Assembly: GCA_001661245.1 (NCBI GenBank)
Contig: KV454016.1
Coordinates: 730,648-794,647 of the forward strand
Origin: Pachysolen tannophilus NRRL Y-2460
Taxonomy: Eukaryota
Reading direction: 5' to 3'
DNA length: 64,000 nucleotides
The notes under the pieces are model-generated. The model ran no database searches. It was not told the origin of the DNA and saw nothing but the letters and a program-made list of their open reading frames with translations. The position numbers and the translations under genes were made by a program. This document shows positions 33,506 to 59,300 of this stretch, piece after piece (the first letter of the stretch is position 1; every line of letters starts with the position of its first letter).

Positions 33506-35998
33506 TTAATTTATTTGAAATAAATGTCCACTAAACTCTTTTATTAACCCATCATCAACTGAATTTAAATCATTTTCTTTTACTATTTCTGTTTCTTGTT
33601 TCACATTATCAAGCCCAGTAATTAACATATTGTAAAAAAAATTTTTTAATTCAAAAGATACAAGACCATATTCATACAATTTTTCAACATGACTAAGACT
33701 TGATTTGAAAATCAAATCTTTATCGTCTTGTTCTGAAATAGTATTAGTCATTGTAGTTAAATATATGTCTTTTTTACCAAAATTGTTTTCAAATTGTTCT
33801 TCAATAACTTCATCTTTTATTACCGTACCATTAACAGCCAATACGTGCCTTTTATAATCATATGGTTTCTTTGCTGGAGATCTAAATTCCAGCTTTAGCT
33901 TCTGCTCTGTACTTCCAAACCCATGATTACCCTTTGAACTTAAATGATACTTAGAAGTCCCATTTTGTACCGTTCCCATTTTAAAAGAAGTTTCTATGTT
34001 GTAATTTTGGAAATTTACATGTGAACTTTTTGCTCGTACAATATCAACGGTAAAATCAATTTCATCCAGATTAGTTTTCGAATCAAGCTTCATCACTATT
34101 GGAGATTTATGTGAAACATTTGTCTGAGATAGTATTAATCCCGGATTTAATGCATCCACCACTGAAAATGAATTATGTGATGATATATCTGAAATTAAAT
34201 GTTGAGTATCTCCATAATTTTGATATATTTGAATATTTGAAGACTGTGACAGAGTAGATGCATCAGAAATAACTTCAATAGTAGATCCATTATTTAATGT
34301 ATATTTTAAAAAACCTTGAATATAATTTTTATAGTGAGTATTTGTTATTTGAATCAAACCAGAAGAGAAAGGTTTCTGTAAAGCAACAACGTTGGAACTA
34401 TTAGTAAAAGATGAATTCAAGAATTCTCCCTCAGCATGTACAACATCTTGTGATTCCCATGTTAATATATTTGCAGTTGTTATCCAATTTTGTCCTATAG
34501 AAGATTTTTTAAGTGTTTTTGGATTATCATCTAAGCAGTTGGAAATTTGAAATTGTAATTTCGAACTAGACTTTGACCAAAGTAATGGTAAAATGGGAGT
34601 TAACTCTATTTCCAAAGCTTTTAAATCAAATGCATCAAAGGAAACCAAAGGTGACCATAATGCAGGTGAGAATCCACCAGTAAATATTACAGGTTCAGGC
34701 AGTATTGTTGCTATTTTCAAATTATCCAAATATACATTGACAACTCTACAAGGACCATGACCCACTAATTCATGATGATTATCTTTAAAAATGTCTTTAT
34801 ACTCATCCAACACATTTGAATACCAAAATTCTTCTCCAGCATTACCAGATGTGAAAAGATGAATTTTGGCTCTTGTTGTATTTTGATGAAATTTAGGTAA
34901 AATACTTATTAATTTATCTGTTGGTTCATATACTAATGGTGGTCTTGATGGATCTGATGGTTTAACAACTGACCAAATCTTATCTGCTGGTTGATTAATT
35001 GTGAAAAAATCCAGTTTATCATCAATTTTACTATCTTCAACTTTATAATAATTTGCTGACAATGAAATATCAAATGATCCATTTAATCTATCAGTTAATA
35101 AATTATCCAATTGAAACATCAACTTGTTACCATTTTTTTTAAATAAATTTGAATATTCGGATAAATCTTTTAAACTTTGACTATTCAGAGATCGTCCACC
35201 AGGTTCAATAGTTGATGTTCTCCAAATTGAAACACCATCCAAGAATATATGAGCCAATCTATCATATTGTACTCCTGAAACAGAAGTATTTAAATATAAT
35301 ATGACTTTATTAAAATCCAAATTTGATGGTAAATTGTAATCGACAATTGCAGGTTTCCCCCAAGAATTACCAAAAGTATGTTGAAGTAAAAATTGTGAAT
35401 ATACAGGTTCTCCAAAATCTTGTACTGGTAATGAAACATCGAAAACTTTTCTCGGAGGTTGATTTAAAATCAATTCTGGATCTTCCCCTTCTTTTAAAAA
35501 TGACAATAAAGGATTAAAATTATGTTTTTTCAAAAAAAAATTATCATCTATTGTTATAGCAGCACGTCCAGTTCTATCTTGTCCAATACTAGTTTCCAGT
35601 AAATAATTAAGATAGGTAAACCCATAAAATATTAAAAAAAATGATATTATTAAAATCTTACAAACTAATAATAATTTTTTCCAAATCTTACAATGATTAT
35701 TTAGTATCAATTCATAGTCACTATCACCAATTTTTTCCAAATCTTTATCTAAATTGAATTCATTGTCAAAATCACCAATACTAGAATTGATACTATAATC
35801 ATTTGCAGCATTCTCCGAGCTTACAGCGCTTTCGGCGCTGTAAGCGCTATAAGCGCTGAAAGCTTCAAAAGCAGCTCTATTTTCAACAAAGTTTCCATCT
35901 TCCATCACCTTATCATTAGTGGAATAATTCTTGAACCTATTTAAACCAAATGATAATTGGTTCCAAATATCCCACTCACGGGTCAATCCAGCTCTCAT
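33506..35998 (-). CDS. Peptide:N-glycanase A (acidic PNGase A family) with N-terminal membrane anchor; start uncertain (35998 or 35905)
   Basis: HTFGNSWGKP, GVQYDRLAHIFLDGVSIWRTSTIEP, SGNAGEEFWYSNV, GHGPCRVVNVYLD, PVIFTGGFSPALWSP..AFDL; TM at LLLVCKILIISFFLIFYGF. Confidence 0.88.
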   Translation of the reverse strand: MRAGLTREWDIWNQLSFGLNRFKNYSTNDKVMEDGNFVENRAAFEAFSAYSAYSAESAVSSENAANDYSINSSIGDFDNEFNLDKDLEKIGDSDYELILNNHCKIWKKLLLVCKILIISFFLIFYGFTYLNYLLETSIGQDRTGRAAITIDDNFFLKKHNFNPLLSFLKEGEDPELILNQPPRKVFDVSLPVQDFGEPVYSQFLLQHTFGNSWGKPAIVDYNLPSNLDFNKVILYLNTSVSGVQYDRLAHIFLDGVSIWRTSTIEPGGRSLNSQSLKDLSEYSNLFKKNGNKLMFQLDNLLTDRLNGSFDISLSANYYKVEDSKIDDKLDFFTINQPADKIWSVVKPSDPSRPPLVYEPTDKLISILPKFHQNTTRAKIHLFTSGNAGEEFWYSNVLDEYKDIFKDNHHELVGHGPCRVVNVYLDNLKIATILPEPVIFTGGFSPALWSPLVSFDAFDLKALEIELTPILPLLWSKSSSKLQFQISNCLDDNPKTLKKSSIGQNWITTANILTWESQDVVHAEGEFLNSSFTNSSNVVALQKPFSSGLIQITNTHYKNYIQGFLKYTLNNGSTIEVISDASTLSQSSNIQIYQNYGDTQHLISDISSHNSFSVVDALNPGLILSQTNVSHKSPIVMKLDSKTNLDEIDFTVDIVRAKSSHVNFQNYNIETSFKMGTVQNGTSKYHLSSKGNHGFGSTEQKLKLEFRSPAKKPYDYKRHVLAVNGTVIKDEVIEEQFENNFGKKDIYLTTMTNTISEQDDKDLIFKSSLSHVEKLYEYGLVSFELKNFFYNMLITGLDNVKQETEIVKENDLNSVDDGLIKEFSGHLFQIN

Positions 35999-36120
35999 TA
36001 TGACCCAATAAGAAAAAAGTAAAAAAAAAAAGTTCTTTAAAAGCAAATAAATAACAAAATCTTTAAAACCCCTCTCTTATCTTTATTTCCCATTCACTCA
36101 ACAATATAATTGAAATAAAT

Positions 36121-36151
<31 letters not shown>

Positions 36152-36422
36152 TTCAATTCAATGGTATTAATGATAGTAATTTGGGACCTAAATACAAAAC
36201 GGCTTTAAATTCCAAAATAGTTAAATAAATAAATAGATTATTAATTAATTAATTATAAATGTCTTTATTTAGTGGTATTAAATATTTTATTATTATATTT
36301 TAAGCCATAATAAATCAAAAGGGGAAACCCCAAAAAACAAAATAAAAACAAAAACAAAAAAATTTAACCGCCGCCCGATAAGATTCAAACTCGTGCGTTG
36401 CTTAATTTACTATAAGGCTGTT

Positions 36423-36433
36423 TGGCCAAGTGG
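36423..36433 (+). promoter_or_regulatory. Pol III A-box in the RNase P RNA leader
   Basis: TGGCCAAGTGG = TRGCNNAGYGG consensus, inside GGCTGTTTGGCCAAGTGGTTTAA, which looks like a tRNA 5' end. Confidence 0.8.
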
Positions 36434-36456
36434 TTTAATTTTGAAAAAAATAAAAA

Positions 36457-36975
36457 AATTGTGACGTTTCGCGCTTACTCGTTAACAAAAGGATTAAGAA
36501 ATTAATCATTAGGATCCGGTCAATTTCTTTCAAGAAATAGGCCGAAGAAAAAAAAAAACGAGTGGGAAATTCGGTGATACTCTCCATCTAATAGTAGGAA
36601 GTATAATTTTATTCCTATTCTTTATTCGATTCAATTCTTTCTACCATGGTAGGAAACTTCCCTGGTAAAAGGAAAGGAAAGAAAAAAGAAAAAGAATTAA
36701 ATAAATACTTTCTATTGGGAAAAGATCTATTTTAATTTATAAAATAGTTTGATGCTCTTGAGAGCTTCCTTGGCGTGTAAACGCTGGGCGACTGTCATCA
36801 GTAAATATAAAAGATAAATTTTACAATTTAATAAAAATTGTAAAAATTGTCTTATGGGAGACGTCGCAGATGGTTGGCCTTCTAATAATTAATAATTAGA
36901 AGTAGCTGTTGAGTGCAATGCGCGAACTAAACAGTTAAATTTGTTTGGCACTCGATACCGATTATCGTCATAATT
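36457..36975 (+). ncRNA. RPR1: Nuclear RNase P RNA (~515 nt)
   Basis: Conserved regions in order: GGGAAATTCGGTG (36564), TGCTCTTGAGAG (~36753), TCAGTAAAT, ATGGGAGACG, CTGTTGAGTGCAAT (~36906), CTCGATACCGATT (~36951). P1 aattgtgacg/cgtcataatt, P2 ttcgcgc/gcgcgaa, P3 ttactcgtt/aacgagtgg. No internal T-run longer than 4; ends in T13. Confidence 0.93.
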
Positions 36976-36986
36976 TTTTTTTTTTT
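36974..36986 (+). terminator. Pol III oligo(dT) terminator of RPR1
   Basis: 13 consecutive T immediately after the P1 3' strand. Confidence 0.8.
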
Positions 36987-37012
36987 CTTAAAAAAAATTG
37001 AAGAAGTTCCCT

Positions 37013-37023
37013 GGTTCGAATCC
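37013..37023 (+). promoter_or_regulatory. Pol III B-box (TFIIIC site) downstream of the RPR1 terminator
   Basis: GGTTCGAATCC, a perfect consensus, in a T-arm-like context CCTGG-TTCGAAT-CCAAG. Confidence 0.7.
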
Positions 37024-37117
37024 AAGAATTAAATAAATTGAATAACGGTATTAATTAAATTAATGAATTAAATCAAATATATATATATATATTTATTTAT
37101 TTATTTATTATATGAAT

Positions 37118-37422
37118 ATGTTGCCTAATATAAGGCGTCTTTTTGCTTCGTTTAGAACAGAAGAAGAAGAAAAAATTTATTCAAGAAAAGCTGTAAGTTT
37201 GATTAAATTAAATTAATAGTAATACTTTTTTTCTTTCTTTATAAATAATCTATACTAATTGATTTTTTTTTTTTTTTTTTAATTCAGTTTTATAATTTTT
37301 TAGGGTTTTTAGCTTCATGTGTAGCATTTTCATTTGTTGCTCAGCAATTGGCAAGACAACCAAGGGAATTAATTCATGCTGCTAGAGTTAATGCTTTACT
37401 ATCTGCTATTCAAAGAAGTTGA
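37118..37422 (+). CDS. MCO6: Small mitochondrial outer-membrane protein Mco6 (YJL127C-B-like), two exons (37118-37192, 37288-37422), 69 aa
   Basis: MLPNIRRLFASFRTEEEEKIYSRKA|FYNFLGFLASCVAFSFVAQQ...; the SRxAF..FLG.L.SCV..S..AQ pattern matches Mco6. Intron GTAAGT 37193, TACTAAT 37253, CAG ending 37287; phase-0 splice keeps the frame. Alternative in-frame ATG at 37112. Confidence 0.82.
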
Positions 37423-37532
37423 ATGAAAATATTAGAATTTAAGTTCAAACTATATTTATATATATATATATATAAAAAATAAAAAAAATTGGGAGTTCTT
37501 TTTTTTTTAATTTCTTTTCTTAATGATAGTTT

Positions 37533-38027
37533 TCAATTTCCTGTAGTTTCTGTAGCTTCAGCATTTGCATTTGCGTTTGCATTTGGATCTACTGGCTCTG
37601 TTCTTTGGTCTGTGCCCATTCCAGTGCCAGTACCACCACTACTACTACCATTATCTAATACACCAGTATCTTCTTTCCACCTGTCCACCATATCATTCAT
37701 AATTAAACTTGCTATATCCTGTCTTAATATCGAATCTCTAAAACTTTTGTCCTTCAATAACATTAAAATATGTAAACAATTGGGATAAACCAAGTATTTA
37801 GCAAAACTAGGTTGTCTCCAATATTCTAAATAATTTAAATAATTTAGAAAACTTTCATCTTCAAGGTACTTATTTTGTGCTAAATAATTTAAATATTGTA
37901 AATTCGATAAAGACTGAACAAATTCTAATTCTATTTCCCATCTCGTGGGCACATCGTCATTTACTGGCTCTTCTCGTTGTTGTTGCTGCTGCTGCTGTTG
38001 CTGCTGTTGTTGTTGTTCAACTTCCAT
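37533..38027 (-). CDS. SOH1: Mediator subunit Med31/Soh1
   Basis: [47 protein letters not shown]; poly-Q N-terminus. Confidence 0.95.
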
Positions 38028-38161
38028 ATTCCTATACCCTTAATAACAATTAAATATATATAGTGCAAAAAAAAATATATATATATATATATATGTATAA
38101 TATAATCTTACATATATTTTTCCAAATAATAATAATAAATACCTTTAAGAAATTAAATATA

Positions 38162-39049
38162 ATGAATAATCAAGTGATATATGCAAACCATATAAAAAAA
38201 TTATCAAATGTCATATTTCGAATATCAAGTCTGGTTTATTTGAAACCTGTTGAGTTTTTAATTTTACTTGTGCCGCCACTTATCATAATATTAGGTCAAC
38301 TTATTCATATCTTTTCTGTACAAGAAGAGATTAATAATTTCTTTACAGATAAGAAAAATTTTATAAATCAAATATTTGTTAAGAAAGGTTGGTTTTGGAC
38401 AATCTTAGTATACTTGATTATATGTTTTGAAAAATTTATTTCTAATAAAAATGATTTAAAACCAATTTTAAAATCAATAGGTAGAATTTTAATATTAACA
38501 CTTTGGTGGGTTTTTTTTACTCAATGGTTCTTTGGATTACCTATAATGGATAAAGTTTTCTTAAATACAGGTGGAGAATGTTCAAATATACCTGGATATA
38601 ATATATTAGGTAAAAAAGGTAATATAGATTCTAATATTTTTATGAAAATCGAACAAAGATTGTTTGCAAAAAATGATAAATTAAATGAGGAACAAGATTT
38701 TTACAGGACGAATGTATTGGGATCTAAAAGTTGTAGGTATTATGGAGGTCAATGGTCAGGTGGTCATGATCCAAGTGGACATATATTTTTATTGGTTTTA
38801 GGTTCAATATTATTACTGTTTGAATATTTGTTATTATTTTCACAAAAAAAAACTTTACAAAAAATGAAACATCATTTAACAATAGGAAAAATTTCTACTA
38901 TTACATTGATTTCATTATGGTTATGGATGCTTTTAATGACAAGTGTTTATTTCCATTCATTTGTAGAAAAACTTTTTGGGTTGGTTTGGTGTTATTCTAT
39001 TATAGGTGTTGTTTACTGTTTGTTTAGGAAGTTTAAAATATTGAATTAA
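38162..39049 (+). CDS. SCS3: FIT-family acyl-CoA diphosphatase Scs3 (likely start 38162)
   Basis: NFINQIFVKKGWFWT, WVFFTQWFFGLPIMDKVF..TGGEC, GGHDPSGHIFLL, TSVYFHSFVEKLFG; divergent from SOH1 as in S. cerevisiae. Confidence 0.9.
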   Translation: MNNQVIYANHIKKLSNVIFRISSLVYLKPVEFLILLVPPLIIILGQLIHIFSVQEEINNFFTDKKNFINQIFVKKGWFWTILVYLIICFEKFISNKNDLKPILKSIGRILILTLWWVFFTQWFFGLPIMDKVFLNTGGECSNIPGYNILGKKGNIDSNIFMKIEQRLFAKNDKLNEEQDFYRTNVLGSKSCRYYGGQWSGGHDPSGHIFLLVLGSILLLFEYLLLFSQKKTLQKMKHHLTIGKISTITLISLWLWMLLMTSVYFHSFVEKLFGLVWCYSIIGVVYCLFRKFKILN

Positions 39050-39140
39050 AACCCCAATATAAATGTATAATAAAGTTCTATTTATTTATTTATTTATTTT
39101 TAAATTTATTAATTTATTAATTTCCAAACTAATTAAACTC

Positions 39141-40988
39141 TTATTTTTTAACTCTCCAAGCTGAAGCAGGTAATTTTTCTAAATATTTTGCTGTTTTCTT
39201 GATCCAAAGAAAATAAGTTAAAATTCCAATACAAACACATAACATATTAGTGAAATAATAACCATCCCTTAAACTAATACAATCCCCACCATTATCAACA
39301 CATTGTTTCTTTAAAGTGGCTGTATTACAATTATAATATGGTTCATTGATAAAAGGATTTGTGGTTTGAACCAGAGAAACATCCAGTGATATACATTCAC
39401 CTTTTGTTAATTTATCAATCATGTACAATACAACAAGTTTTGGCCATTGACCACCTAAATTTGATAAAGTATTTAAAGTGGTCATATAAGTACCACCAAT
39501 TAAAGGATCTGCAATTCTCGTATGGAAAGCACATATGGAAACAAATTGAATTGTTGACATGAATGATCCCAATAAATGTTGTAAGATAACAAGTATGAAA
39601 TAAACACCATTAATCTCACCAGATTTAGGGAACAGTATGATTAAGAATTGTCCCAGAAATGCAGCTATTAATCTTCCCAAGAAGGCTAAAAGCCATGGTT
39701 TTAAAGGTTCAACTCCTGAAGACCAATGACCTGCATAATATCCAAATATGATTTCAAATGGGAAATCAATTAAAACTGTAATTGCTAAATCTTCTTTTGA
39801 AAAACCTTTTTCTAATAATTTTAAATTTGTTGCTGCTTCATTTGCTTGAAATCCAATTTTACTAATAAGATGTAATATTATAAATATTTTAACATTGTGT
39901 AATTTAACTACATTATACATTTTTTTGTAAACTGCTTTTAAAGATTCAATTGGACTAAGTTCTTCATGTCCAATTGTTGAATTTATATTTGTACCATCTG
40001 TATTATTTGCTGTTGTTATAGGAACAATATTCATATCCATTGTATTTAATTCTATGTCATCATTTCTTTTATTTGAATCATCATTTTTTAAATTAATATT
40101 TTCTTTTAATGGATTTTCAGGAACAAATAATGTAATTATTATTGTTATTAAAATGAAAAAAAATCCCCAAAATATTAAATATTGTTTTAAAGAAATTAAA
40201 CCATAATCTTTTGGAATTTTTCTTAAATATTTATTTGCAAATTCTGGAGAATTAAAAGTTAAAAAAATTGTAAATGATAAGAAATATCCAATATTTAATC
40301 CAACAGTTTGAGCTGTTGATGCATATGATAATGCATTTTTGGATAATATAGTTAAGGCCCAGCCATCAACTGCAATATCTTGAGTAGCACATAATAAAAT
40401 TAAAGTGAAAAATGCAAAAGTTATATCGTATAAATTTTTTTCAATATCATCAAATAATTTTTCAATTCTTAATCCCAATAAGATTAATGTTATACCACTT
40501 AAAAATTGTACTGGAATAATCCAAGATTTTCTTCTTCCAATTTTTTTAGAAAAAATTGAATCTACTATAGGTGAATAAATTAATTTAAAAGAATATGGAT
40601 AACTAGCAAGAGTGAAAATACCAATTTGTGAATATGATAAATTTGAACTTTTCAAAATATATGGAATTGATCCAAAACTTAATCCAATTGGAATACCTTG
40701 TATTAAATATAATAATACCAATATTAAAAATTGAGGTCTATCCTTCCGCGGTAAAGACATTGCCTTCTTTGTTTGATTCTTATTATTAAACATATCCGCT
40801 GAAGATGAAGATAAAGATGAAGCTGAACCATCCAAACTATTAACAATAACATTGCCATCTCCAATCAATGGAGAATTCAACCGCGATTTAGTAGAACTTA
40901 AACCATCACCGTACGGTGAAACATTATGTTCATTATATTCTTTACTATTTGTATTTGTTGAACTTGAATTGACATTATAATTTGCCAT
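39141..40988 (-). CDS. ER acetyl-CoA transporter (AT-1/SLC33A1, YBR219C-YBR220C-like)
   Basis: LYLIQGIPIGL, YPYSFKLIYSPIVDS, GRRKSWIIP, ATQDIAVDGWAL, IGGTYMTTLNTLSNLGGQWP, RDGYY. Confidence 0.92.
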   Translation of the reverse strand: MANYNVNSSSTNTNSKEYNEHNVSPYGDGLSSTKSRLNSPLIGDGNVIVNSLDGSASSLSSSSADMFNNKNQTKKAMSLPRKDRPQFLILVLLYLIQGIPIGLSFGSIPYILKSSNLSYSQIGIFTLASYPYSFKLIYSPIVDSIFSKKIGRRKSWIIPVQFLSGITLILLGLRIEKLFDDIEKNLYDITFAFFTLILLCATQDIAVDGWALTILSKNALSYASTAQTVGLNIGYFLSFTIFLTFNSPEFANKYLRKIPKDYGLISLKQYLIFWGFFFILITIIITLFVPENPLKENINLKNDDSNKRNDDIELNTMDMNIVPITTANNTDGTNINSTIGHEELSPIESLKAVYKKMYNVVKLHNVKIFIILHLISKIGFQANEAATNLKLLEKGFSKEDLAITVLIDFPFEIIFGYYAGHWSSGVEPLKPWLLAFLGRLIAAFLGQFLIILFPKSGEINGVYFILVILQHLLGSFMSTIQFVSICAFHTRIADPLIGGTYMTTLNTLSNLGGQWPKLVVLYMIDKLTKGECISLDVSLVQTTNPFINEPYYNCNTATLKKQCVDNGGDCISLRDGYYFTNMLCVCIGILTYFLWIKKTAKYLEKLPASAWRVKK

Positions 40989-55713: not shown

Positions 55714-56255
55714 GATCTTGGTTTTATTTGTTTATCTAATTTTTTACGTCTATATTATTATATTTCCAATTTTTTAATGTTTTTGTTAATTGACATAAAT
55801 GGTTTTTTTTTTTTTTTTTTTTTTTATCAAGTAAAAAAAAAGAAAGATAAAGTTTACTAAAGTAGCAAGAAAGAAGTACTTATTAAGAAGTAGCAAGAAG
55901 ATTATGTATAGAATATATGTACATCTTTTTTTTTTTATATATTTTTTTCTTTTTCTCTTCATAGTTAGTTGATTCAATACATCTTCTTTATATTTTGGTT
56001 ACACTTGACAATTCAATTTTAAAAAAAAGTAATTGAAATTTTGTTTAATGAATTATTTTGGTGAAAACGGTAATTACCGTTCAGCCGATTTACTACTTTT
56101 AATTAAAAAGAACTGGGGGAACTTGGGGAACTGGGGAAAGCACAAGTATAAGTGTGAGATCCATCAGCGCACCATAATATTTACGGTTTCGCAATAAAGA
56201 TCAAAAGATAAAAAAAAATAAAAAAATATAATAATGTTTATTATTATTATGTTTT

Positions 56256-56328
56256 TGCGTGAACCGGGATTCGAACCCGAGTCCCCAGCTTGGAAGGCTA
56301 GAATGCTAAACCACTACACTATCCACGC
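56256..56328 (-). tRNA. tRNA-Gly (anticodon TCC), intronless
   Basis: GCGTGGA TA GTGT AGTGGTTTA GCAT T CTAGC CTTCCAA GCTGG GGAC TCGGG TTCGAAT CCCGG TTCACGC A forms a complete cloverleaf with A- and B-boxes. Confidence 0.96.
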
Positions 56329-59300
56329 GGTTTAGATACCAAGTGAACCAAAAAACCAAAATTTATTGTTTCATCTTTTGATCCGCCTTGAATTCAAAAT
56401 TTAATTTAAAAAAGAAATTGTTAAATTTAAATAAATATAATAAATAATGCCGCTAAAACAAAAACCCCCCAAAAAAAAACATTCTTTACAGTGGTTCCTC
56501 TCGGAAAGTACTCGCTCGATCTTATTAAATTTCTTTAGTCTTGAAGTATTTTGTTTTCTTTGAATTGTTGCTTCCAAATCTGCCAATTAGTTAAAAAATA
56601 CAGAGTTTTTAGTTTCTCTAAACTAAAAAATAACCTAAACTGGAAAAGTTTTTTATTTTTTTTTTTTTAACTTCTCGCGCACAGAGTTAAATCAATAGTA
56701 TCAATTTACCGAAATAACGTTGAATTAAAATAGAGTTGAAAATAAGAAGCTTAGCAGCTAAGACAAACCAACGTCGTTAACCAACACCACATATTAATCA
56801 ATTGTAGTTTTATATAATGTATATTTTGAATTCTTATTTATTATTATTGTAACCAATAATACCATTTATATCTTATTAGGCTTTATTTGGCGACTTGCGT
56901 TTTAACCGTTCAGTCAACTTTAAGAGCTCAAAGAAAAACTTCTAACCACGTTTTTAGATAAAAAAAAAAAAAAAAATAGATTTAGTTAGAATGCTTGCAT
57001 TTTAGTTTTTACACTAAAATTATTACAAACTCGATTCTGTACTCATGGAAGCTCTTAGTGCTATTCTTCTTCAGTTTTAGAATTAAATCTTTTGATACAT
57101 AAATCAATTATGCTGTATGTTAGCGTATGTTTTCCGAGTAAAAAATTATGACTACGTAATTTTTTAAATTAAGTAAGAAATGAATAGTCAATTTGTGCAT
57201 GCATCACTAAAATATTACTAGCGAAGTTCAAATTTGAATTAGTAATGAAGCACTAGTATATCAAAAACATAGATGTATCATGGCGTTTCTCCTGTAATAC
57301 AAATTGTCTTCTTTTTTTTTTTATTTTATTTTTATTTTTTATTTTTTACCGCTACAAAACTATTAATAAAAGACATAATTTAATAATTTTTTAAATTACC
57401 TACTTGATTTATGAATTGATTTTTTTTTTTCGCAAAATTACTTAGAGGCATCGATCGATCATCCGAATATGGAAAATTCATTCAATTATATTTTTCTCGG
57501 AAAAAATGTTATTGTCAAGTTGTACCGATTTGCACTTTGATTATCCTACAGTATAATAAAGTTTCGTAAATACTAATACGACTAAGAAAAGTGTACGAAG
57601 CTGGGATAATTACTTTCTTCACAATTTTGACACCATGATGATGAATCAAGTAATTTCCTTCTTAATTTAGAATCGAACTAATTGCTTGTAATTTTTTTTA
57701 ACTAAAAATACATCACCTAGCATGTTAGTTAGAAAGCATTCTTTTAGGCAACTGGGCTGTCAGAAAAAAAAAAAAAAAAAAGATGCTACATTAGTTATTT
57801 AAGGAACTATAGGCCTATTCATCTTTTTAAAAAGGCGTTTTCAATGATGTAGTTAGTGATTTTGTTACTTTCAACTACTAGGTCGATTGAAGAGCAACTT
57901 GAAGCAACGTAAATTACTATAAACTTTCCTGCAGAAGTTTAAAGTTCAAAGATAAATTGTAGACTGTGCATAGAACAATACAAATTGAGCAGATATTATG
58001 CATTCCTTACCAGCAAGGGTGTAACTAGAGTTAATTTAGTAACATTTTTACTACATAAATCTAAGACTCTTCTTTTTTCATTTATTTAACCGGCAGTTTT
58101 TCTAACTGAATCCCGAACTTTTTAAATAAAATAAAAGTCCTGATATAGGGCCGCTTACAGGAGTATTACTTCAAAAGTTTCCAATTCTAGAAATCCAATT
58201 AAAAAATGATACCGATAAATTCAGGTTTCAATTTTTACCTCTATTTGAAAATAAAACTGTATTGGGTGAATGGGATTTAGAAACAAATTAACATAGCATA
58301 GTCAAAGGTATAAGCCTACCGTTAAAATAAAAGCCTTGAGAAAAGTTAAGATTCAAAGATTTTTTTTATTCTGCCAAATAATCCATAAAACAACTCTATG
58401 TACCACTTTGGGGATTACAATACAGCTCAAATGCCGCAGCTTACGTGTTGATTGTTAGGTACCTGGATCATACATCAACATTGGTTTCATAATTGCTTCT
58501 TGCATTCCTTAAAAGAAGTAGCCTACTTTTTGTGCTCATGTATAAAATGCAGCTGTGTAAATAAATAAAAATAAAAAAAAATAGGCTGTACTATTTTTCC
58601 TTGATAAATCGGGTATACTTGAACCGCGAAGAAAAAATTTACAAGAAAAAAATGCTCATTGAATTTTCAAAAAACGTAAATACGATTACGAGTTAAATCT
58701 GATATCATCAGTCTTGCTGCTTTCTTTGACATGGTATAGTAACAACCCTTCCACAAAATGCTAGAATCAATTAAAATCACTAACTTTTGGGCTCTTTTAT
58801 AGGATTCAATCTTAAAACATTATTCAACATGTAAAATGTACAATTCTTTCATCATTATTAAAATGAATCAATCAATTCTCCTTTGATAATAATTTAGTTA
58901 TAAAATTACTATCCTTGAAAAGTTTTTGGCTCTTTTGACACATGACTAAATTATTTTTTTATAATTAGAGAGACTGAGAGACAGACTGACAGACTGACAG
59001 ACAGAGAGAGCAAAAAAAAAAAAAAAAATTAATGGTGTATAAAACATTAGTATTTTTTGCTACCATTATAGGAAACCGAATCATTAAAACTACACATATC
59101 TAATTGATGGATTTCAAGGCTGATTGATAAATGAGAATTTTAAAATGATTTTATATGAAAAACTAGCATAAAAGATGTACCTATACTTATACCTGTACCT
59201 ATACCTATTCAGTTAGGAGTATATAGTACACACTTAAAAATCACCAAAAAGAAAAGAGGAAAATTAACTTTATATGTATGCATGTTTTGCTTAAATCTCT

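What the first reader, a model, noticed from the sequence alone, without database searches (positions are those of the whole stretch)
36416..37026. RNase P RNA gene bracketed by two halves of a tRNA-like Pol III promoter, with the B-box beyond the terminator
Seen: 5' of the mature RNA is GGCTGTTTGGCCAAGTGGTTTAA, very like the first ~23 nt of a yeast tRNA-Leu and containing a perfect A-box. The ~45-nt leader has no B-box. A perfect B-box in a 4/5-paired T-arm (CCTGG TTCGAAT CCAAG) lies 26 nt after the T13 terminator, ~580 bp from the A-box. The transcribed part has no T-run above 4 although A-runs reach 11, as expected for Pol III. Known: S. cerevisiae RPR1 has both boxes in its leader, while a downstream B-box is the SNR6 (U6) arrangement with much shorter spacing. 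Inferred: a U6-like long-range A/B architecture for RPR1, possibly a relic of the RNase P gene sitting inside a split tRNA gene. Alternatives are a stand-alone TFIIIC boundary site before MCO6, or use of a degenerate B-box (GATTCAAACTC, 36382) upstream of the A-box.
Basis: partly seen in the sequence, partly recalled or inferred. Interest (0 to 1): 0.72.

Follow-up and report, generated by a model that had tools for sequence, protein, structure and literature searches.

The report
RNase P gene with downstream B-box
A yeast gene for the RNA of RNase P has one half of its usual polymerase III promoter in front of it and the only good copy of the other half just behind its terminator, an arrangement so far known mainly from the yeast U6 RNA gene.

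Summary
A nuclear RNase P RNA gene of about 515 nt (36459-36973, + strand) is real. It is preceded by a leader with an exact A-box (36423-36433) and ends in a T13 run (36974-36986). An exact B-box, GGTTCGAATCC, lies at 37013-37023: 26 nt behind the T-run, 579 nt behind the A-box, same orientation.

No other B-box within two mismatches exists between 34675 and 39706. The window's only other exact copy is inside its single tRNA gene. Chance is excluded (about 6e-6 expected in that spacer).

Best reading (0.45): the leader lost or never had a B-box, and TFIIIC anchors behind the terminator and reaches the A-box by DNA looping, as at S. cerevisiae SNR6 but with about three times the spacing.

Main rival (0.3): a TFIIIC-only site acting as a roadblock or insulator before EMR1/MCO6, whose ATG is 88 nt away. 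The two are compatible.

The "split tRNA relic" idea is not supported.

No relatives, RNA reads or whole genome could be obtained, so function is inferred. Marck et al. 2006, which surveyed yeast RPR1 promoters, was not readable, so novelty is provisional.

The parts
36368..36399 (+). G+C-rich block where TFIIIB would sit (about -40 to -5 of the inferred start). It contains no TATA box.
   Evidence: Read. The window is 28.7% G+C. Its function is unknown.
36404..36458 (+). Inferred 5' leader of the primary transcript. The start near 36404 is inferred from the usual position of an A-box about 19-20 nt after a Pol III start; it was not mapped.
   Evidence: Inference from recalled tRNA gene geometry. 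The leader has no significant fold (z -0.86) and gives no tRNA hit.
36416..36438 (+). Segment that looks like the first 23 nt of a tRNA (acceptor-like 7 nt, then A-box / D-loop-like).
   Evidence: The likeness to tRNA-Leu is recalled, not tested.
36423..36433 (+). A-box, TGGCCAAGTGG.
   Evidence: The only match in the window to TRGCNNAGTGG.
36459..36973 (+). Mature RNase P RNA (RPR1), about 515 nt. The ends are set by the P1 helix, 36459-36466 with 36966-36973.
   Evidence: Fold z-score -9.9. Rfam RF00009 partial match at 36717-36958. P1 strands shown. Blocks shared with the published Issatchenkia orientalis RPR1.
36564..36576 (+). CR-I, GGGAAATTCGGTG. UCGGU at 36571-36575 can pair with ACCGA at 36957-36961 (helix P4).
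   Evidence: CGAGTGGGAAATTCGGTG is identical over 18 nt to the I. orientalis RPR1 sequence in the supplement of PMC6595149 (compared by eye).
36592..36717 (+). A+T-rich expansion hairpin between CR-I and CR-II, absent from the Rfam model. It contains the one-mismatch B-box-like string ATTCGATTC (36624-36632).
   Evidence: Fold z-score -4.5. The Rfam alignment starts at 36717. B-like string found.
36912..36920 (+). CR-IV, AGTGCAATG.
   Evidence: Identical to the RF00009 consensus AGUgCAAUG.
36950..36964 (+). CR-V, ACTCGATACCGATTA.
   Evidence: Fits the recalled consensus ACNNNAUNCNGNNUA. The same consensus fitted a bona fide bacterial RNase P RNA.
36974..36986 (+). T13 run, the Pol III terminator, directly behind P1.
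37013..37023 (+). Exact B-box, GGTTCGAATCC, inside a T-arm-like 17-mer (37010-37026). C56 of tRNA numbering is 37017.
37112..37422 (+). EMR1/MCO6, two exons (37112-37192 and 37288-37422) with a GTAAGT...TACTAAT...CAG intron. The ATG is 88 nt after the B-box.
   Evidence: Sequence. Pfam Emr1 on exon 2. Distance.

Best explanation
This is a yeast RPR1 gene transcribed by RNA polymerase III from a split type-2 promoter.

Proposed mechanism:
- The tauB module of TFIIIC binds the exact B-box at 37013-37023, 26 nt behind the T13 terminator.
- The tauA module reaches the A-box in the 5' leader (36423-36433), with the 579 bp in between looped out or compacted.
- tauA then places TFIIIB upstream, so that transcription starts near 36404 and ends in the T13 run.
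- The leader of about 55 nt is cut off to give the 515-nt ribozyme RNA.

Consequences, all inferred:
- TFIIIC is never in the polymerase's path.
- The terminator is held next to the start site.
- The bound TFIIIC also shields the EMR1/MCO6 promoter from read-through.

Shown: the gene, both boxes, the terminator, and the absence of any other B-box. Inferred: the binding, the looping, the start site, and the dependence of RPR1 on the B-box.
For: (1) Gene identity.
- Fold z-score -9.9.
- RF00009 alignment on the right strand with an exact CR-IV.
- An 18-nt CR-I block and further blocks (TACTCGT, ACAAAAGGATT, TCTAATAG, CTCTTGAGAG) shared with the I. orientalis RPR1 sequence in the supplement of PMC6595149 (by eye).
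- P1 and P4 pairings.

(2) Pol III signs.
- Exact A-box 36 nt before the mature 5' end, unique in 64 kb.
- T13 directly after P1.
- 0 T-runs of 5 or more against 7 such A-runs in the transcribed strand.

(3) Elimination.
- There is no B-box within two mismatches anywhere in the intergenic region except 37013-37023.
- Only 25 nt of A-rich leader follow the A-box, less than the 31-93 bp A-B spacing of tRNA genes (PMC11724288, passages).

(4) The B-box is not chance (6e-6 expected in the spacer), and it points the same way as the A-box.

(5) TFIIIC is anchored by high-affinity B-box binding and only then finds the low-affinity A-box (PMC11811891, abstract and passages). An A-box alone is therefore an unlikely promoter.

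(6) Precedent. S. cerevisiae SNR6 has its B-box behind the terminator, about 200 bp from the A-box, and it is essential in vivo (PMC5855946; PMC11346459; PMC13475603).
Against: - There is no direct evidence of TFIIIC binding or of dependence. No RNA run held the stretch, and no relative could be compared.
- A 579-bp spacing is about three times that of SNR6 and far beyond tRNA genes. The yeast tau138 linker is only about 100 residues (PMC11811891), so looping must be assumed.
- SNR6 has a TATA box at -30 that helps TFIIIB; here that region is G+C-rich and has none.
- The I. orientalis 250-nt RPR1 fragment, which by my eye also lacks an exact B-box (it has only GTTCCAAGC and TTTCGAAGC, one mismatch each), drove sgRNA expression on a plasmid without any downstream sequence (PMC6595149, passages and supplement file 5). 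Yeast RPR1 leaders may therefore work with degenerate B-boxes, or with none.
- One-mismatch B-like strings exist inside the gene, for example ATTCGATTC at 36624.
- The B-box lies 88 nt before the EMR1/MCO6 ATG, where a TFIIIC-only site would also make sense.
Confidence: 0.45

Rival explanations
1. The B-box is a TFIIIC-only site (like an ETC site) that does not drive RPR1. Bound TFIIIC would stop polymerase III that reads through T13 and would insulate or organise the very short EMR1/MCO6 promoter. RPR1 itself would be driven by the leader A-box plus a degenerate internal B-like element or an unrecognised upstream element.
For: - The B-box sits 88 nt before the EMR1/MCO6 ATG and 26 nt after a strong Pol III terminator.
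- TFIIIC at the SNR6 B-box obstructs Pol III (PMC13475603, passages).
- ETC sites are established TFIIIC-only sites (PMC11724288).
- The I. orientalis RPR1 upstream fragment works without downstream sequence and, by eye, without an exact B-box.
Against: - If TFIIIC sits there, tauA is tethered close to the only A-box in the region, so a promoter role is hard to avoid.
- No candidate internal B-box is better than one mismatch at the near-invariant G53, and such strings are common in this A+T-rich DNA (5 on the + strand in 850 nt).
- The orientation matches the A-box.
Confidence: 0.3
2. The two boxes are the remains of one tRNA gene (tRNA-Leu-like) into which the RNase P RNA gene became inserted, or of a tRNA gene that once followed RPR1. 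The B-box would be a decaying relic without present function.
For: - The leader's first 23 nt look like the 5' end of a class II tRNA (recalled likeness).
- The B-box has a 4-of-5 T-stem.
- The S. cerevisiae RPR1 leader is described as a tRNA-like promoter (PMC2566860, passages).
Against: - The acceptor strands pair at only 3 of 7 positions.
- There is no D-stem 3' strand and no anticodon or variable arm.
- No tRNA hit by ARAGORN or Rfam.
- The 52 nt that a tRNA body would need in front of the B-box are occupied by the ribozyme's 3' end, T13 and an A8 run.
- A perfect 11-mer with 6 G/C, kept in 29% G+C DNA while everything around it is gone, argues for selection on the box itself.
Confidence: 0.1
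3. RPR1 here is made by RNA polymerase II or from a TATA-type upstream promoter, and both boxes are irrelevant.
For: - TATAAG lies at 36411-36416.
Against: - T13 lies directly at the 3' end of P1.
- T-runs are avoided on the sense strand only.
- An exact A-box is at the expected place.
- There is no 5' splice site motif behind the gene before the EMR1 intron at 37193.
Confidence: 0.04
4. The B-box is a chance match.
For: None beyond the fact that short motifs can recur by chance.
Against: Expected 0.006 exact copies in the whole window and 6e-6 in the 125-nt spacer. The only other copy is in a tRNA gene.
Confidence: 0.01

Closest known systems
S. cerevisiae RPR1 (RNase P RNA gene with an 84-nt leader promoter)
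   Same: Same gene. It is Pol III transcribed, has a tRNA-like promoter element in a 5' leader that is removed from the mature RNA, and ends in a T-run terminator (PMC2566860; PMC5095917).
   Different: There, both A- and B-boxes lie in the leader. Here the leader (about 55 nt inferred, 25 nt after the A-box) has no B-box, and the only one lies behind the terminator. The RNA here is about 515 nt, with a 125-nt expansion hairpin.
S. cerevisiae SNR6 (U6 snRNA gene)
   Same: A-box early in the transcribed region and a B-box downstream of the terminator in the same orientation. At SNR6 the B-box is essential in vivo and TFIIIC-bound (PMC5855946; PMC13475603).
   Different: SNR6 has a TATA box at -30 and an A-B spacing of about 200 bp that fits one nucleosome. 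Here there is no TATA at -30 and the spacing is 579 bp. The B-box is 26 nt after the T-run, against about 120 nt at SNR6 (that figure is recalled).
Extra TFIIIC (ETC) sites
   Same: A consensus B-box without a tRNA body, lying in a Pol II promoter region.
   Different: ETC sites are defined by TFIIIC without TFIIIB or Pol III (PMC11724288). This one abuts a Pol III gene that lacks a B-box of its own.
Issatchenkia orientalis (Pichia kudriavzevii) RPR1 promoter fragment used for sgRNA expression
   Same: Homologous RNA: an 18-nt CR-I block and several other blocks are identical. Its leader has an A-box (TAGCCTAGCGG) and, by eye, no exact B-box (supplement file 5 of PMC6595149).
   Different: Its leader after the A-box is about 14 nt longer, G+C-rich, and has two one-mismatch B-like strings. 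It works on a plasmid without its own 3' flank. Its 3' flank is not in the paper.
Schizosaccharomyces pombe U6 gene
   Same: Another case where the B-box sits away from its usual place.
   Different: There it is inside an intron of the gene, so it is transcribed (PMC5855946).

Membership tests
Nuclear RNase P RNA (Rfam RF00009) | Reaches the Rfam gathering score | tested here: not met
   14 bits against 28. The match is partial (model positions 75-283 of 301), E 0.024-0.14 depending on the stretch searched. The shortfall is explained by the expansion hairpin at 36592-36717 and the A+T-rich helices.
Nuclear RNase P RNA (Rfam RF00009) | Conserved regions CR-I, CR-IV and CR-V in the right order | tested here: met
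   CR-IV AGUGCAAUG equals the model consensus. CR-I is identical over 18 nt to the I. orientalis RPR1. CR-V fits the recalled consensus, which also retrieved a true bacterial RNase P RNA.
Nuclear RNase P RNA (Rfam RF00009) | P1 pairing of the two ends and P4 pairing between CR-I and CR-V | tested here: met
   36459-36466 pairs with 36966-36973 (8 pairs, one of them G-U). UCGGU at 36571-36575 pairs with ACCGA at 36957-36961. No covariation test was possible.
RPR1-type leader promoter (A- and B-box both in the 5' leader) | A-box in the leader | tested here: met
   TGGCCAAGTGG at 36423-36433, 25 nt before the mature 5' end.
RPR1-type leader promoter (A- and B-box both in the 5' leader) | B-box in the leader, some 30-90 bp after the A-box | tested here: not met
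   No match to GWTCRANNC between 36434 and 36986, and none within two mismatches of GGTTCGANTCC.
SNR6-type promoter | B-box downstream of the terminator, same orientation as the A-box | tested here: met
   37013-37023, + strand, 26 nt after T13.
SNR6-type promoter | TATA box about 30 bp before the start | tested here: not met
   36368-36399 is G+C-rich without a TATA. TATAAG at 36411 lies after the inferred start.
SNR6-type promoter | A-B spacing of about 200 bp | tested here: not met
   579 bp between the boxes.
SNR6-type promoter | Transcription in vivo depends on TFIIIC bound at the B-box | not testable with these tools
   Needs ChIP and mutation.
ETC (extra TFIIIC) site | TFIIIC bound without TFIIIB and Pol III | not testable with these tools
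   Only the sequence is known: a consensus B-box with no A-box within 100 nt upstream.
Split or disrupted tRNA gene | The 5' and 3' pieces form an acceptor stem and a cloverleaf | tested here: not met
   3 of 7 acceptor pairs. No D-stem 3' strand. No ARAGORN or Rfam tRNA hit.

The most novel reading that the evidence does not exclude
TFIIIC anchored behind the terminator loops out the entire 570-nt RPR1 transcription unit to reach an A-box 579 bp away. This would be the longest natural A-B spacing known and a second natural gene of the SNR6 class. The arrangement would keep TFIIIC off the transcribed DNA, hold the terminator beside the start site for polymerase recycling, and at the same time wall off the neighbouring Pol II gene.
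Probability: 0.4. Interest if true: 0.65.

Novelty: new variant of a known kind. Interest (0 to 1): 0.55.

Why it matters
[quoted passage not shown] A second, unrelated gene with the same layout and a three-fold longer spacing would show three things:
- The extragenic B-box is a reusable solution rather than a U6 oddity.
- It would give a natural test of how far TFIIIC can bridge, and of whether looping or nucleosome wrapping does the bridging.
- Pol III promoter halves can move during evolution while the RNA stays the same.

It also matters in practice. Upstream fragments of RPR1 are widely used as sgRNA promoters in non-conventional yeasts, and they would be incomplete in species built like this one.

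Tried and rejected
- **Whole genome.** None is held. I therefore could not count stand-alone B-boxes, compare the leader with this yeast's own tRNA-Leu genes, or look at its SNR6, SCR1 and SNR52.
- **Earlier findings of the scan.** Nothing for this place or sequence. Word searches gave only unrelated notes.
- **Sequencing runs.** No RNA holder was listed.
- **Laid contigs.** One contig of run X5 covers 36168-36960 with no other letters and one extra A at 36547, so it is the same species. No contig was laid over 36969-37274, so nothing is learned about the B-box. Runs X6, X7 and X8 matched only low-complexity stretches.
- **Metagenome scan** for 'CR-V, T-run, B-box'. There was 1 hit, a bacterial class A RNase P RNA (170.9 bits) with a chance GGTTCGAATCC behind a T7 run. 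It is irrelevant to Pol III.
- **Genome-contig scan** for CR-IV...CR-V. All 29 loci are bacterial or archaeal by title. 1 of 29 had a loose CR-I-like string upstream and none looked like a yeast RPR1.
- **Protein atlas** on the neighbouring acetyl-CoA transporter gave only 'Ascomycota'.
- **Rfam on the leader alone** gave no tRNA or RNase P hit. The leader fold is not significant.
- **Papers not held.** Marck et al. 2006, Kaiser et al. 2004, the id I recalled for Lee et al. 1991, and Kachouri et al. 2005.
- **Literature searches for a downstream B-box at RPR1** found none. This covers only the held open-access library.
- **Degenerate B-box at 36382.** Rejected: poor match and upstream of the A-box.
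- **T-arm as evidence of a tRNA.** Rejected: the pairs beyond the B-box itself are within chance.

Full report
**What is there**

The window is 28.7% G+C. Between a PNGase A-like gene on the minus strand (33506-35998) and the small intron-containing gene EMR1/MCO6 (37112-37422; Pfam Emr1 28.5 bits against a cut-off of 25) lies an intergenic region of about 1.1 kb.

The stretch 36460-36974 folds far better than shuffled sequence (-156.9 kcal/mol, z -9.9, 0 of 100 shuffles as good).

**Is it RNase P RNA?**

Rfam's nuclear RNase P model does not reach its gathering score. It gives a partial match at 36717-36958 on the + strand: 14 bits against 28, model positions 75-283 of 301, and E 0.14, 0.048 and 0.024 as the searched stretch shrinks.

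The alignment nevertheless places AGUGCAAUG (36912-36920) on the identical model consensus, and it places the P10/11-P12 helices sensibly.

- The 5' half carries GGGAAATTCGGTG (36564-36576).
- CR-V is ACTCGATACCGATTA (36950-36964).
- UCGGU can pair with ACCGA to form P4.
- The ends pair as P1 (36459-36466 with 36966-36973).

The CR-V consensus is recalled. When used as a search pattern it retrieved a genuine bacterial RNase P RNA, which shows the consensus is sound.

Independent support comes from a published sequence. The Issatchenkia orientalis RPR1 and RPR1' promoter fragments are printed in supplement file 5 of PMC6595149. Compared by eye, they share with the window an identical 18-mer, CGAGTGGGAAATTCGGTG, and the blocks TACTCGT, ACAAAAGGATT, TCTAATAG and CTCTTGAGAG in the same order.

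The low Rfam score is explained by a 125-nt A+T-rich expansion hairpin between CR-I and CR-II (36592-36717, z -4.5). I take the gene as real, about 515 nt long.

**Polymerase III signs**

- P1 is followed at once by T13 (36974-36986).
- In 36404-36973 there is no T-run of 5 or more but there are seven such A-runs, up to A11.
- Lack of T5+ alone is weak evidence: 502 of 5076 windows of 570 nt lack one, as do 29% of mononucleotide shuffles. The strand asymmetry is the better sign.
- TGGCCAAGTGG at 36423-36433 is the only match to the strict A-box consensus in 64 kb.
- It sits inside GGCTGTTTGGCCAAGTGGTTTAA (36416-36438), which resembles the start of a class II tRNA. That likeness is recalled, not tested.
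- From the usual geometry, transcription should start near 36404. This is inferred.

**The B-box**

GGTTCGAATCC occurs twice in the window: in tRNA-Gly (56256-56328, minus strand) and at 37013-37023 on the + strand.

- The second copy is 26 nt after T13, 579 nt after the A-box, and 88 nt before the EMR1/MCO6 ATG.
- From composition, 0.006 copies are expected in the window and 6e-6 in the spacer.
[quoted passage not shown] The one-mismatch strings on the + strand are 36624, 36629, 36747 and 36913, and five such strings occur on that strand in 850 nt, so they are background.
- Within two mismatches of the 11-mer consensus there is nothing else from 34675 to 39706.
- After the A-box only 25 nt of A-rich leader remain before the mature RNA. 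That is shorter than the 31-93 bp A-B spacing of tRNA genes (PMC11724288, passages).

**What it most likely does**

TFIIIC is anchored by high-affinity B-box binding through tauB and then finds the weak A-box through tauA (PMC11811891, abstract and passages). A Pol III gene with an A-box, no TATA at -30 (36368-36399 is G+C-rich) and no B-box of its own is therefore expected to use the one consensus B-box beside it.

The precedent is S. cerevisiae SNR6. There the B-box lies behind the terminator, about 200 bp from the A-box. It is essential in vivo, and bound TFIIIC also blocks polymerase that runs past the terminator (PMC5855946; PMC11346459; PMC13475603).

Here the spacing is three times longer. 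The yeast tau138 linker is only about 100 residues, so the gene body must be looped or compacted.

A loop would bring T13 next to the start site, which would suit terminator-dependent recycling. This last step is my inference.

I put this reading at 0.45.

**Rivals**

*TFIIIC-only site (0.3).* The same B-box could act only as a TFIIIC roadblock and insulator for EMR1/MCO6. The strongest argument for it, and against need of the B-box for RPR1, is the I. orientalis experiment:
- A 250-nt upstream fragment drove sgRNA expression on a plasmid (PMC6595149, passages).
- By my eye that fragment has an A-box but only one-mismatch B-like strings (GTTCCAAGC, TTTCGAAGC).

The two readings are compatible, because TFIIIC bound there for one purpose is tethered near the only A-box.

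*Split-tRNA relic (0.1).* This is not supported:
- The acceptor strands pair at 3 of 7 positions.
- The D-stem 3' strand is missing.
- No tRNA finder responds.
- The space in front of the B-box is filled by the ribozyme's 3' end and terminator.
- A perfect G/C-containing 11-mer, kept while all else decayed in 29% G+C DNA, points to selection on the box.

*Pol II transcription (0.04) and chance (0.01)* are unlikely.

**What could not be done**

- No whole genome is held.
- No RNA run held the stretch.
- Two collection scans returned only prokaryote DNA.
- The key survey of yeast Pol III promoters, Marck et al. 2006, is not held.
- Five searches of the open library found no report of a downstream B-box at RPR1.

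Novelty is therefore provisional: a new variant of a known kind of promoter, resting on sequence logic rather than on conservation or experiment.

**Verdict**

- Observation: confirmed.
- Interpretation: partly supported.
- Interest: 0.55.

Noticed in passing
window 36592-36717: RPR1 carries a 125-nt A+T-rich expansion hairpin between CR-I and CR-II (z -4.5). This makes the RNA about 515 nt long and pushes the Rfam RF00009 score below its gathering threshold. Genome annotation by Rfam would miss this gene.
   Followed up: partly
window 36368-36399: A G+C-rich block (AACCGCCGCCCGATAAG...CTCGTGCGTTGC) lies in 29% G+C DNA exactly where TFIIIB should sit upstream of RPR1. It has no TATA box. It may be a binding site for another factor.
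   Followed up: no
window 36126-36151: An uninterrupted run of 26 A lies in the intergenic region between the PNGase A-like gene and RPR1.
   Followed up: no
window 37112-37422: EMR1/MCO6 (ERMES regulator) is a two-exon gene with a 95-nt intron (GTAAGT...TACTAAT...CAG). Its whole promoter must fit into the 125 nt after the RPR1 terminator.
   Followed up: partly
supplement file 5 of PMC6595149: The published Issatchenkia orientalis RPR1 promoter fragments (250 and 370 nt) contain an A-box but, by eye, no exact B-box. The location of that species' B-box is also open, and it would be worth checking behind its terminator.
   Followed up: partly
L001 1512-1570 (minus strand as shown): In a metagenome contig, a bacterial class A RNase P RNA gene is followed by a T7 run and then an exact GGTTCGAATCC. 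This is a coincidence with no Pol III meaning, and a reminder that such patterns do arise by chance in very large collections.
   Followed up: yes
window 56180-56420: The window's single tRNA gene (tRNA-Gly TCC, minus strand) carries the same B-box 11-mer. It has no TATA box upstream, and its first T-run lies about 35 nt behind the gene.
   Followed up: partly
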